64,000 bases of DNA, taken from Escherichia coli (GTDB taxonomy: Bacteria; Pseudomonadota; Gammaproteobacteria; Enterobacterales; Enterobacteriaceae). Positions 57,301 through 60,300 of the stretch are shown in pieces. Made by a program: the position numbers. The stretch lies in NCBI RefSeq assembly GCF_030013205.1, contig NZ_CP122648.1; one strand, 5' to 3'. The number at the start of each line of letters is the position of its first letter. The first letter of the stretch is position 1.

Positions 57301-60300
57301 ATGCCGTGTTCATGGCCTGTACGAGATAACATGACGGATCACTTTTATGAGCAAAAAATTTGAAGGCAGCGTCGCGCCTCGCGAGCGTATTAATATATCG
57401 TATGTCCCAAAAACAGATGGCCAGACGGCTGAAGTTGAACTTCCGCTTAACATGCTCGTTGTCGGCGATACCGGAAATACGCAGGAAACATCCCCACTGG
57501 ATGAACGTCAGGCAGTTTCCGTTAACAAGCACAATTTCGGTGCAGTGATGGCTGAAGCAGCCATTGGCCTCAATTTTACTGTCCCCGCCACGCTGAAGGG
57601 AAGCACAACAGACGATGAACTGAATGTGGCGCTGAATATCAAATCACTGGATGATTTTTCACCAGATAGCGTGGCCCGGCAGGTTCCGGAAGTGAATAAA
57701 TTGCTGGAACTGCGTGAAGCACTGACTGCGCTGAAGGGGCCGATGGGCAACCTTCCGGCATTCCGTACCCAGCTCCAGGCATTGCTGGAAAATGAAGAGT
57801 CCCGCAAGCAGTTGCTCAAAGAAATCGGCCGGGTGAGCAATAAATAACCACCGCTATTTCATTAAACAGGGTTATCCAGGCATGACGGCACACAAAAATA
57901 TCTCCGGGACATACCACCTCTCTGTTGCAGACATTCTGCAGGTGGTTTACCAGGTATGTTTCAGCCCGTCCGTTGAAATCAACCAGGATGGTGTGGCTGC
58001 GCTGATTACAACACTGGATCGCCGTATCAGTGATCTATTGGATGAGATTATCCATTTTTGTGAGTTTCAGCAGAGCGCGTCGCACTGGCAGCGCGTACTT
58101 CACTGATGGCGAAAAGCCGGTTTCAGAAACACAGCTAAAACAGAAGGATTTTCAGTATGTCTTTACAGGAAGAGGAACTCGTTTCCAGTCATGCCGAGCA
58201 GCCTGAGCAGGCATCGTCGCTGCTTGATCAAATCATGGCACAGACCCGTATTCAGCCCGGTTCGGAAGGTTATGACGTTGCCCGCCAGGGTGTGACAGCC
58301 TTTATTGCCAGCATCCTGCAATCCACTGCATCTGCCGAACCGGTCAATAAACTGGCCGTGGACAGCATGATTGCAGATATTGATGAACGCATCAGCCGCC
58401 AGATGGATGTCATCATCCATGCGCCTGCCTTTCAGCAGGTCGAGTCGTTCTGGCGCTCACTGAAAACCATGGTGGATCGCGTTGATTTCCGTGAAAACAT
58501 CAAGGTCAACGTGCTTCATGTCACCAGGCAGGAACTTCTGGAAGACTTTGAGTTTGCGCCAGAAATTATTCAGTCCGGATTTTATAAGCACGTTTATTCG
58601 TCCGGTTTCGGACAGTTTGGCGGTGAACCCATCGCTGCCGTGCTGGGCGCTTATGAGTTCAAAAATACCGCGCCTGACATGAAACTGCTGCAATACGTCA
58701 GTGCCGTGGGCGCAATGGCGCACGCACCGTTCCTGTCCTCCGTTTCCCCGGAGTTTATGGGGCTGAACTCGTGGACCGAACTGCCTAATATCAAAGATCT
58801 TTATGCCATCTTTGAAGGTCCGGCCTACACCAAATGGCGCGCCCTGCGTGACTCGGAAGATTCGCGCTATTTAGGGCTTACGGCACCCCGCTTCCTGCTT
58901 CGCCAGCCCTATTCACCAACAGATAACCCTGTTAAGAACTTTAACTATCACGAAGATGTCAGCCGGAACCACGAAGATTATCTGTGGGGTAATACGGCCT
59001 GGATGCTGGCGTGCAATGTCGCAGACAGTTTTGCCAAATACCGCTGGTGTCCAAACATTATCGGTCCGCAAAGCGGCGGCGCAGTGAAAGATCTGCCGGT
59101 GCATCTGTTCGAAACGATGGGGCAGATTCAGGCCAAAATCCCAACCGAGGTGCTGGTCACCGATCGCCGCGAATTTGAACTGGCTGAAGAGGGTTTTATC
59201 ACCCTTACCATGCGTAAAGACTCTGATAATGCAGCCTTTTTCTCTGCAAACTCGGTACAAAAACCGAAGCACTTTCCGGGAAAAGACGCAGAAACCAACT
59301 ATAAGCTGGGTACGCAGCTTCCTTATCTCTTCATCATCAATCGGTTAGCGCACTACATCAAGGTGTTGCAGCGTGAACAACTGGGGTCATGGAAAGAAAG
59401 GAGCGACTTAGAAAGAGAGCTTAATACCTGGATCCGTCAGTATGTTGCCGACCAGGAAAACCCGCCTGCGGACGTGCGCAGCCGTAAACCTCTGCGCGCT
59501 GCCAAAGTTGAGGTTATGGATGTGGAAGGCGAACCCGGCTGGTACCAGGTCGCGCTGAGCGTGCGGCCCCATTTTAAATTTATGGGGGCAAACTTTGAGC
59601 TTTCCCTGGTTGGCCGGTTAGACAGGGAGTAACACGCCATGATACCGGATCGGGAAAGAACCACAGGTTCTCTTTTTGAGCGTATGGAAGCCTCACCGGC
59701 CAGAAACCGGCAGGGAAGCAGTATTCATGCGCTCAGGCAGTCCATTCGCCAGAACCTGCGAAACATTCTTAATACCCGGTCCGGTAGTTGCCGGGGTGCG
59801 CCTGAACTGGGCATTGATGAACCGGAAGGGGCTGAAAACTTCCGCGAATCAATGAGCCGGGCCATCGCGCAATGTATAGAACGCTATGAACCCCGGCTCT
59901 CACACGCTGAAGTGCAGGCTGTGGTTTCATCCGCCGCCAGCCCGCTGGATATGACGTTTCATATTACAGCCTGGGTGACATTTAACGAAACGCATGAAGT
60001 GCTTGAATTTGATATGGCACCGAATGGCAGCCAGCATTACCGGGTGGACTGACAGATGGAATTTGAAGAACGCTATTTCCGGGAAGAACTCGATTACCTG
60101 CGCCAGCTCAGCAAGCTGCTGGCAACGGAAAAACCCCATCTGGCCCGCTTCCTGGCCGAAAAAGATGCGGATCCGGATATTGAACGCCTGCTGGAAGGCG
60201 TGGCTTTTCTTACCGGCAATCTTCGCCAGAAAATTGAGGATGAATTCCCAGAACTGACGCACGGGCTTATTAAGATGCTGTGGCCTAATTACCTGCGTCC

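What the first reader, a model, noticed from the sequence alone, without database searches (positions are those of the whole stretch)
57882..58106. Diverged TssC N-terminal fragment wedged between tssB and tssC
A 74-codon ORF in the 310-bp tssB-tssC gap aligns at about 45% identity with residues about 70-100 of the downstream TssC. It looks like the relic of a second, divergent tssC, for example from recombination between two T6SS clusters. T6SS sheath genes are normally adjacent.
Basis: seen in the sequence. Interest (0 to 1): 0.5.

Follow-up and report, generated by a model that had tools for sequence, protein, structure and literature searches.

The report
Leftover tssC start between sheath genes
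The small ORF between the two type VI secretion sheath genes is a real, old, truncated copy of the start of the large sheath gene; it is shared by several enterobacterial genera, often broken or deleted, and most likely an ordinary dispensable leftover.

Summary
A 74-codon ORF (57882-58106, +) fills a 309-bp tssB-tssC gap. It is homologous to about residues 50-100 of the downstream TssC (BLASTP E 3e-8; weak but consistent Pfam, NCBIfam, PDB and DNA-level hits). The cluster is E. coli T6SS-2, and the ORF matches the annotated hypothetical gene Z0263. The same insert lies in 2240 of 5426 complete E. coli genomes and in E. albertii, Salmonella, Citrobacter, Atlantibacter and Yokenella. All other relatives, including E. 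coli T6SS-1 and T6SS-3, have gaps of 2-141 bp, mostly under 55. It arose once. TssB, TssC, TssE, TssF and Hcp trees agree, and the fragment matches its own TssC type best. An in-place partial duplication of the tssC 5' end is therefore more likely than recombination between two clusters. Recent evolution looks neutral (omega 0.4-1.5 against 0.03-0.09 in neighbours). About 6 of 14 lineages have broken or deleted it. One point does not fit pure decay: across the three deep branches the frame stayed open, indels are in-frame and third codon positions changed most. That suggests past weak coding constraint. Low interest, with a small chance of a TssC-mimic peptide.

The parts
57347..57847 (+). tssB (sheath small subunit, 166 aa), upstream neighbour
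   Evidence: ORF list. RefSeq annotation of identical or near-identical E. coli loci.
57848..57881 (+). Spacer upstream of the small ORF, with an AGGG Shine-Dalgarno-like element. Probably the original tssB-tssC spacer.
   Evidence: It resembles the 17-23 nt tssB-tssC spacers and tssC starts of insert-free relatives. Statistical support is marginal (nhmmer E about 0.01-0.02, one lineage only).
57882..58106 (+). 74-codon ORF, a truncated and diverged copy of the tssC 5' end. RefSeq protein WP_000123970.1, 'hypothetical protein'. By position between Z0264 (tssB) and Z0262 (vipB) it should be Z0263 of EDL933; that equivalence is inferred.
   Evidence: Locus-tag context from PMC7216683, PMC12981562 and PMC10657854.
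57963..58094 (+). Core of demonstrable homology: ORF codons 28-71 against TssC residues 58-101.
   Evidence: hmmsearch with a TssC N-terminal profile, 24-37 bits for all nine relic versions. DNA-level nhmmer hits. Gapless alignment.
58117..58156 (+). Conserved tssC leader with the AAGGA ribosome-binding site. Probably the only part of the gap under clear present constraint.
   Evidence: It is 82-85% identical between the E. coli, Citrobacter and Salmonella groups (68-75% for pairs with E. albertii or L072) and 100% within the Citrobacter group. The ORF body is 50-61% identical between groups. It is retained where the relic has been deleted. An AGGA/ANGGA CsrA-type motif upstream of tssC is noted in PMC13141884.
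58157..59632 (+). Resident full-length tssC (491 aa), the homologue of the fragment
   Evidence: (822 bits to V. cholerae VipB).

Best explanation
The ORF is a truncated, fast-evolving copy of the first ~105 codons of tssC. It was created once, on the stem of the Enterobacteriaceae sub-lineage of VipB-type T6SS clusters that includes E. coli T6SS-2. The simplest origin is an in-place tandem duplication of about 0.3-0.35 kb that ran from the tssB-tssC spacer into tssC. The upstream copy lacks all sheath core domains, so it cannot be a sheath subunit. It lost about 30 codons and diverged to about 36% identity with TssC. It sits inside the tssB operon transcript between tssB and tssC, and in this E. 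coli it can still encode a 74-aa peptide. Today it behaves as a dispensable leftover. It drifts at about the synonymous rate and has been broken or deleted repeatedly. The functional part of the gap is the conserved ~40-nt tssC leader. Shown: the homology, the single shared position, the phylogenetic distribution, present-day relaxed evolution and repeated loss. Inferred: tandem duplication as the mechanism, transcription, and lack of present function. A period of weak coding constraint early in its history is likely.
For: Homology to TssC. Distribution: 2240 of 5426 complete E. coli genomes carry the gap. A 290-316 bp gap with the same fragment occurs in E. albertii, Citrobacter youngae, Atlantibacter, Yokenella, Salmonella enterica and two unnamed lineages. 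The nearest cluster without it is Superficieibacter (TssC 90% identical, gap 23 bp), and more than 50 further relatives have short gaps. In-place origin: the TssB and TssC phylogenies agree, each with 4 synapomorphies for the insert-bearing clade, and Hcp, TssE and TssF agree too. The fragment is nearest to its own TssC type. The spacer and start of the ORF resemble the tssC ribosome-binding site and start. Relaxed evolution: the relic's DNA identity is about that of four-fold sites in the flanking genes (0.91 against 0.90-0.94 within E. coli). NG86 omega is 1.5 and 0.55, and the uncorrected pN/pS of the other close pairs is 0.39-0.58; tssB and tssC give 0.03-0.09. Dispensability: an early stop in C. 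youngae, a frameshift plus a stop in Yokenella, multiple lesions in the E. albertii type strain, two frameshifts in L087-89, and partial or full deletion in Salmonella L083 and L084-86. Many rare frameshifted E. coli alleles exist. No Rfam family, promoter or terminator consensus, or stable RNA fold was found in the gap.
Against: The deep history does not look purely neutral. In the gapless 45-codon core, the minimum changes among the three deep groups are 24, 26 and 44 at codon positions 1, 2 and 3 (Fisher p 5e-4 to 0.03 for E. coli against the other groups). Each of the three deep groups still has an intact ORF, although neutral simulation gives only 0.11-0.18 survival without a stop per root-to-tip path. 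All between-group indels inside the ORF are multiples of three (12, 6 and 6 nt, plus a 48-nt deletion in E. marmotae). The duplication mechanism is not proven. The relic's inferred ancestor is only slightly nearer to own-clade tssC than to sister tssC (57% against 52% DNA identity, bootstrap p about 0.06; informative sites 11 against 10). Homology of the spacer and start region is marginal (E about 0.01).
Confidence: 0.6

Rival explanations
1. The ORF is a real, fast-evolving accessory gene. Its peptide mimics the TssC N-terminus and binds the C-terminal helix region of TssB or the ClpV N-domain, and so tunes sheath assembly or recycling in T6SS-2. It would be dispensable in hosts where the system is decaying.
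For: The frame stayed open across three deep branches. Third-position-biased divergence appears in an unambiguous gapless core, and the indels are in-frame. At least 11 distinct 90%-identity clusters of full-length 68-70-aa ORFs exist in the Salmonella/Citrobacter group. The residues kept across relic groups (LD.R, D.II.H, Q, W) are those conserved in TssC. N-terminal TssC fragments suffice to bind TssB (PMC3840085). The core is predicted to be helical.
Against: Recent comparisons show no coding constraint. About 6 of 14 sampled lineages have destroyed or deleted it while keeping tssB and tssC intact. The published TssB-binding fragments are 212-384 aa, much longer than this piece. The AlphaFold2 TssB-linker-ORF fusion was uninformative (mean pLDDT 48). 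I found no expression data, and T6SS-2 is H-NS-silenced in the laboratory (PMC13141884).
Confidence: 0.2
2. One reading: the fragment is the stump of a second, already divergent tssC, left by recombination between two T6SS clusters. For example, a foreign tssB plus 5' tssC segment, or a foreign tssC and downstream genes, joined illegitimately.
For: The relic cannot be placed firmly with own-clade rather than sister tssC. Its low identity to the resident gene (36% aa) would be easier to reach from a diverged starting point. In raw identities Superficieibacter TssB looks slightly closer to insert-free clusters than its TssC does.
Against: The best match is the resident T6SS-2 type, not E. coli T6SS-1 or T6SS-3. 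The relic is never closer to distant TssC lineages. An own-clade tssC DNA profile scores the relic at 8-27 bits, against 0.5-8.5 bits for a sister-clade profile. TssB, TssC, TssE, TssF and Hcp give the same clade structure, with equal numbers of stem synapomorphies in TssB and TssC.
Confidence: 0.15
3. The ORF matters only in cis. Keeping about 225 nt of the 309-nt spacer translated protects the long tssB operon transcript from Rho-dependent polarity on tssC and the downstream genes. The frame is then selected, but the amino-acid sequence is not.
For: The frame stayed open and the indels are in-frame while the protein sequence diverges fast. The tssB operon is reported to be a single polycistronic unit (PMC13141884). 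Ordinary clusters have almost no untranslated spacer.
Against: Third-position bias in the core implies some amino-acid-level constraint, which this model does not predict. Lineages with early stops or frameshifts persist. Nothing was tested directly.
Confidence: 0.1

Closest known systems
TssC / VipB, the T6SS contractile sheath large subunit (Pfam PF05943 + PF18945; NCBIfam TIGR03355)
   Same: The ORF is homologous to TssC residues ~50-104, the segment just before and at the start of the ordered VipB chain in solved sheaths.
   Different: It is 74 aa against ~490 aa and has no sheath core domains. It scores 19 bits against a curated cutoff of 271.5. It cannot polymerise as a sheath subunit.
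Hypothetical gene between tssB and tssC in RefSeq E. coli (WP_000123970.1); Z0263 of EHEC EDL933 by position
   Same: It is the same gene. RefSeq annotates an identical 74-aa 'hypothetical protein' between tssB and tssC in O157:H7 86-24 and in K_EC180. Z0264 = tssB and Z0262 = vipB in EDL933 (PMC7216683, PMC12981562). Z0263 is listed beside T6SS genes in a virulence-gene screen (PMC10657854).
   Different: None of the papers I could search describes it as TssC-derived or gives it a function. One JGI record calls a cluster member 'predicted component of type VI protein secretion system'.
Gene remnants from partial tandem duplication in bacterial operons
   Same: It is a truncated copy next to its intact parent. 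Its recent substitution rate is near-neutral, and it shows independent stops, frameshifts and deletions.
   Different: It has persisted at roughly constant length (290-316 bp) across genera whose flanking four-fold sites are saturated. It shows signs of past coding constraint.
N-terminal TssC fragments that bind TssB (EAEC Sci-1, P. aeruginosa, B. cenocepacia; PMC3840085)
   Same: It covers part of the TssC N-terminal region that those experiments show to be sufficient for TssB binding.
   Different: Those fragments are 212-384 residues. This piece corresponds to at most ~105 residues with internal deletions, and no binding has been tested.

Membership tests
TssC/VipB sheath large subunit | Full-length protein (~470-520 aa) that matches the family model above its curated cutoff | tested here: not met
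   74 aa. TIGR03355 gives 19.1 bits against a cutoff of 271.5, covering profile positions 43-82 only. Pfam VipB positions 2-33 of 301.
TssC/VipB sheath large subunit | Sequence homology to the TssC N-terminal region | tested here: met
   BLASTP E 3e-8. Profile hits to solved TssC/VipB chains, E 6e-5 and 8e-5. DNA-level nhmmer E 2e-8.
Gene relic / pseudogene | Truncated copy of a gene that is intact elsewhere, at a conserved position | tested here: met
   Only TssC ~50-104 is demonstrably represented. The position is the same in all insert-bearing lineages.
Gene relic / pseudogene | Independent disabling mutations in different lineages | tested here: met
   Stops, frameshifts and deletions in L004, L006, L018, L083, L084-86 and L087-89, and late stops in L002 and L072.
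Gene relic / pseudogene | Neutral evolution (omega near 1, rate near synonymous rate) | tested here: inconclusive
   Recent pairs give omega or pN/pS of 0.39-1.5, and the rate is about that of four-fold sites. Deep comparisons show third-position bias, 24/26/44 changes, and the frame is retained.
Conserved small T6SS accessory gene | Intact ORF in all or nearly all clusters of the lineage | tested here: not met
   It is intact in about 6 of 14 sampled lineages, trimmed at the C-terminus in 2, and destroyed or deleted in 6.
Conserved small T6SS accessory gene | Expressed protein with a T6SS phenotype | not testable with these tools
   I found no expression or mutant data. T6SS-2 is silenced in vitro (PMC13141884).
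Recombination scar between two T6SS clusters | Phylogenetic discordance of genes on the two sides of the junction | tested here: not met
   TssB and Hcp on one side agree with TssC, TssE and TssF on the other on the same clade. There are 4 stem synapomorphies in both TssB and TssC.
Recombination scar between two T6SS clusters | Fragment closer to another TssC lineage than to the resident one | tested here: not met
   Resident type 35.8 bits, above T6SS-1 at 30.0 and T6SS-3 at 29.3. Own clade 57%, sister 52% and distant 49% DNA identity to the inferred relic ancestor.

The most novel reading that the evidence does not exclude
The Z0263-family ORF is a domesticated piece of the sheath protein. 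This 66-78-aa two-helix peptide would be derived from the TssC N-terminus (a ClpV-helix-like segment plus the first helices that pack against TssB). It would bind TssB or ClpV and modulate sheath assembly or recycling in T6SS-2. It would have been kept in frame for a long time and then lost wherever the system decays.
Probability: 0.15. Interest if true: 0.6.

Novelty: new member of a known kind. Interest (0 to 1): 0.3.

Why it matters
The finding explains an annotated 'hypothetical protein' (Z0263-like) present in about 40% of complete E. coli genomes, including O157:H7. It also explains why tssB and tssC are 0.3 kb apart in T6SS-2 when they are normally adjacent. The insert is a clean marker for one sub-lineage of T6SS clusters across Escherichia, Salmonella, Citrobacter, Atlantibacter and Yokenella. 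It is relevant to published disagreement over whether tssB and tssC of EHEC are co-transcribed. It also separates the conserved 40-nt tssC leader, the likely regulatory target, from 270 bp of drifting sequence. If the peptide had a function, it would be an example of a structural protein's N-terminus reused as a small regulator. The evidence makes that unlikely.

Tried and rejected
1. Chance similarity is rejected. Several independent profile and DNA-level tests agree.

2. E. coli-specific novelty is rejected. The insert is shared by at least five genera.

3. Origin from E. coli T6SS-1 or T6SS-3 is rejected. I fetched EAEC 042 Sci-1 and Sci-2 tssC, and both score lower than the resident type.

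4. Placing the relic phylogenetically against own-clade or sister-clade tssC was inconclusive (bootstrap p about 0.06; informative sites 11 against 10).

5. I tried to extend the homology to the tssC start and leader, and beyond codon ~107. Support was only marginal (E about 0.01), or absent beyond codon ~107-112.

6. An apparent TssB/TssC discordance for Superficieibacter, seen in raw identities, dissolved when derived states were counted. Hcp, TssE and TssF also agree.

7. A regulatory RNA or promoter in the gap was not found: no Rfam hit, no promoter or terminator consensus, and fold z-score -1.1.

8. The whole-library HMMER search with the relic profile found only relic ORFs and noise, and no full-length TssC above threshold.

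9. The AlphaFold2 model of a TssB-linker-relic fusion had mean pLDDT 48 and says nothing about binding. I did not run a positive control.

10. The Kim et al. 2022 paper on the EHEC divergent promoter (PMID 35984617) is not held, so its claim that tssB and tssC are separate operons could not be checked.
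Full report
**What is there**

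Window 57347-57847 encodes TssB and 58157-59632 encodes TssC. They are followed by tssE, tssF and tssG. The 309-bp gap between tssB and tssC holds one open frame, 57882-58106 (+), of 74 codons. The other two frames carry 2 and 6 stops.

BLASTP of the ORF against the downstream TssC gives 35.8 bits, E 3e-8, 36% identity over 56 residues, ORF 15-70 against TssC 50-100. The ungapped core is 15/34 identical (44%).

The homology does not rest on one comparison:
- Pfam VipB matches at i-E 0.003.
- NCBIfam TIGR03355 (TssC) matches at E 5e-4.
- A profile of the ORF family hits solved M. xanthus TssC and V. cholerae VipB at E 6e-5 and 8e-5.
- A TssC N-terminal protein profile scores all nine relic versions at 24-37 bits.
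- A tssC 5' DNA profile hits the gap at E 2e-8.

The demonstrable extent is ORF codons ~28-71 against TssC 58-101.

**Which system, and what is already annotated**

The cluster is E. coli T6SS-2, the type found in EHEC O157:H7 next to yafV and ivy (PMC7216683). RefSeq calls the ORF a 'hypothetical protein' (WP_000123970.1, identical in O157:H7 86-24 and in strain K_EC180).

In EDL933, Z0264 is tssB and Z0262 is vipB (PMC7216683, PMC12981562). The ORF should therefore be Z0263, a tag that appears only in a virulence-gene list (PMC10657854). That equivalence is my inference from gene order. I found no paper that recognises it as TssC-derived.

**Distribution**

The gap sequence is present in 2240 of 5426 complete E. 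coli genomes. It is at least 99% identical in 1903 of the 2258 genomes with any match, and a second allele at about 93% occurs in about 285.

I scanned one genome per species with TssC, and then traced TssB clusters to contigs. This found a gap of the same size (290-316 bp) carrying the same fragment in:
- E. albertii, Citrobacter youngae, Atlantibacter subterranea and Yokenella regensburgei;
- several Salmonella enterica lineages;
- two unnamed lineages.

Every other relative has a short gap:
- Superficieibacter 23 bp, although its TssC is 90% identical to the E. coli protein;
- C. farmeri 17 bp and another Salmonella cluster 19 bp;
- Rahnella and Buttiauxella 20 bp;
- more than 40 more distant loci 2-141 bp, mostly under 55.

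In EAEC 042 the T6SS-1 gap is 21 bp and the T6SS-3 gap is 2 bp. The insert is therefore a single derived character of one sub-lineage, not an E. coli oddity.

**Origin**

I tested this in three ways.

1. The ORF matches the resident T6SS-2 TssC best (35.8 bits), ahead of T6SS-1 (30.0) and T6SS-3 (29.3). Its order of preference among solved TssC chains mirrors that of the resident TssC.

2. A three-lineage consensus of the relic core is 57% identical in DNA to own-clade tssC, 52% to sister-clade tssC and 49% to distant tssC. The own-versus-sister difference is weak (bootstrap p about 0.06; informative sites 11 against 10).

3. Genes on both sides of the junction tell the same story. TssB and TssC each have four derived residues uniting the insert-bearing clade against Superficieibacter plus the outgroups. 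Hcp, TssE and TssF agree.

The sequence just upstream of the ORF and its first codons also resemble the short spacer, ribosome-binding site and MSLQEE start of tssC in insert-free relatives. That similarity is only marginally significant.

Taken together, an in-place partial tandem duplication of the tssC 5' end is the simplest origin. An exchange with a closely related cluster cannot be excluded.

**Present behaviour: relaxed and dispensable**

- Within E. coli the relic is 91% identical between the two alleles, against 90-94% at four-fold sites of tssB and tssC.
- NG86 omega is 1.5 for the two E. coli alleles and 0.55 for Citrobacter against Atlantibacter. Uncorrected pN/pS of the other close pairs is 0.39-0.58. 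tssB and tssC give 0.03-0.09.
- Disabling changes are independent: a stop at codon 21 in C. youngae; a frameshift and a stop in Yokenella; many lesions in the E. albertii type strain; two frameshifts in L087-89; reduction to 126 bp in one Salmonella lineage; and complete loss of recognisable relic sequence in another with a 137-bp gap.
- Two further lineages only lose the last 6-8 codons.
- Rare frameshifted alleles occur within E. coli.
- My tally over about 14 lineages is 6 intact, 2 trimmed and 6 destroyed.

The last ~40 nt before the tssC start behave differently. They are 82-85% identical between the E. coli, Citrobacter and Salmonella groups, against 50-61% for the ORF body. They survive even where the relic is gone. 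They contain the AAGGA ribosome-binding site, a motif discussed as a possible CsrA site in PMC13141884.

I found no Rfam family, promoter or terminator consensus, or unusually stable RNA fold in the gap.

**What does not fit pure decay**

The three deep groups (Escherichia; Citrobacter, Atlantibacter, Yokenella and Salmonella; L071/L072) have saturated four-fold sites in the flanking genes (identity 0.35-0.56). Yet each still has an intact ORF.

Neutral simulation from present sequences gives a probability of only 0.11-0.18 that a 70-78-codon frame stays stop-free over 0.33-0.45 substitutions per site. For three groups I estimate the joint probability at roughly 0.01. That figure is my own rough inference and allows for shared branches.

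All indels inside the ORF between groups are multiples of three (12, 6 and 6 nt, and 48 nt in E. marmotae).

In the gapless 45-codon core, the minimum numbers of changes among the groups are 24, 26 and 44 at codon positions 1, 2 and 3. Fisher p is 5e-4 to 0.03 for E. coli against the others, and 0.04-0.28 for the other two groups against each other. GC content by codon position does not explain this. No relic is specially close to its own group's tssC, which argues against recent gene conversion.

Caveats apply. The core was recognised by amino-acid similarity, the counts are small, and the groups share history.

My reading is that the truncated copy was translated and weakly selected for some time. 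The selection could have acted on its product or simply on keeping the spacer translated. The ORF is now drifting.

**Mechanistic possibilities**

The piece corresponds to the TssC N-terminal region. N-terminal TssC fragments of 212-384 residues suffice to bind TssB (PMC3840085). From my own knowledge, not tested here, the extreme N-terminus of VipB carries the ClpV-binding helix.

The relic's N-terminal half keeps a similar pattern (LSDEDILQA against SLLDQIMAQ), but this resemblance is not statistically supported.

An AlphaFold2 model of TssB fused to the ORF through a linker was low-confidence (mean pLDDT 48). It shows only that the ORF is predicted as two helices.

A peptide that mimics TssC and titrates TssB or ClpV remains possible but unsupported.

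**Verdict**

The interpretation 'relic of tssC' is right. The 'second divergent tssC from inter-cluster recombination' is not supported.

The feature is an old partial duplicate of the tssC 5' end. It marks one enterobacterial T6SS sub-lineage. It is annotated as a hypothetical gene and is not described in the literature I could search. It is now largely dispensable. It is a new example of a familiar kind of thing and of modest interest.

Noticed in passing
window 54477-56660 (- strand) and 56660-57346: An Rhs C-terminal fragment abuts the T6SS divergent promoter region. Compared with O157:H7, this strain lacks hcp, vgrG and the Rhs N-terminus. Homology to the O157 hcp-tssB intergenic region starts right where hcp should begin. 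The T6SS-2 cluster here is probably non-functional.
   Followed up: partly
window 62956-63264: tagH is interrupted: the ORF is only 102 aa, where O157 has a 1281-bp gene. RefSeq marks tagH 'internal stop' and tssH as truncated in K_EC180, which matched window 57300-58300 at 100%.
   Followed up: partly
L001 15858-17249 (E. coli O157:H7 86-24): tssC/vipB of O157:H7 is annotated as 464 aa because of a premature stop, and tssA and tssM are frameshifted. PMC12981562 describes this as T6SS degeneration in EHEC.
   Followed up: partly
window 58117-58156: The last ~40 nt upstream of tssC (CAGAAACACAGCTAAAACAGAAGGATTTTCAGT) are far more conserved across genera than the rest of the gap. They persist where the relic is deleted. 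They are a candidate tssC translational control region containing a CsrA-type ANGGA motif.
   Followed up: partly
L083 1705-1830; L084-L086 1705-1841: In two Salmonella-type lineages the gap is 126-137 bp and begins with a shared, unrelated sequence (TCGCGATCTGGC...). L083 keeps only ~17 relic codons, and L084-86 keep none. The origin of the replacement sequence is unknown.
   Followed up: no
proteins P0033 and P0049: Two fusion ORFs appear in public assemblies. In one, the relic N-terminus joins the last ~75 residues of TssC, which implies deletion of most of tssC (7 contigs). In the other, the TssB C-terminal half joins the relic. Both point to further deletions around this junction.
   Followed up: no
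L078 1-1948 (Superficieibacter sp.): The closest insert-free cluster has a truncated hcp (104 aa) and Rhs fragments upstream of tssB. That region is therefore rearranged there too.
   Followed up: no
window 57347-57847 vs L001 15048-15548: Between this strain and O157:H7, tssB differs at 11 of 501 positions. The gap differs at 2 of 309 and tssC at about 11 of about 1390. The tssB allele of this strain seems unusually diverged, possibly because of a local recombination history.
   Followed up: no
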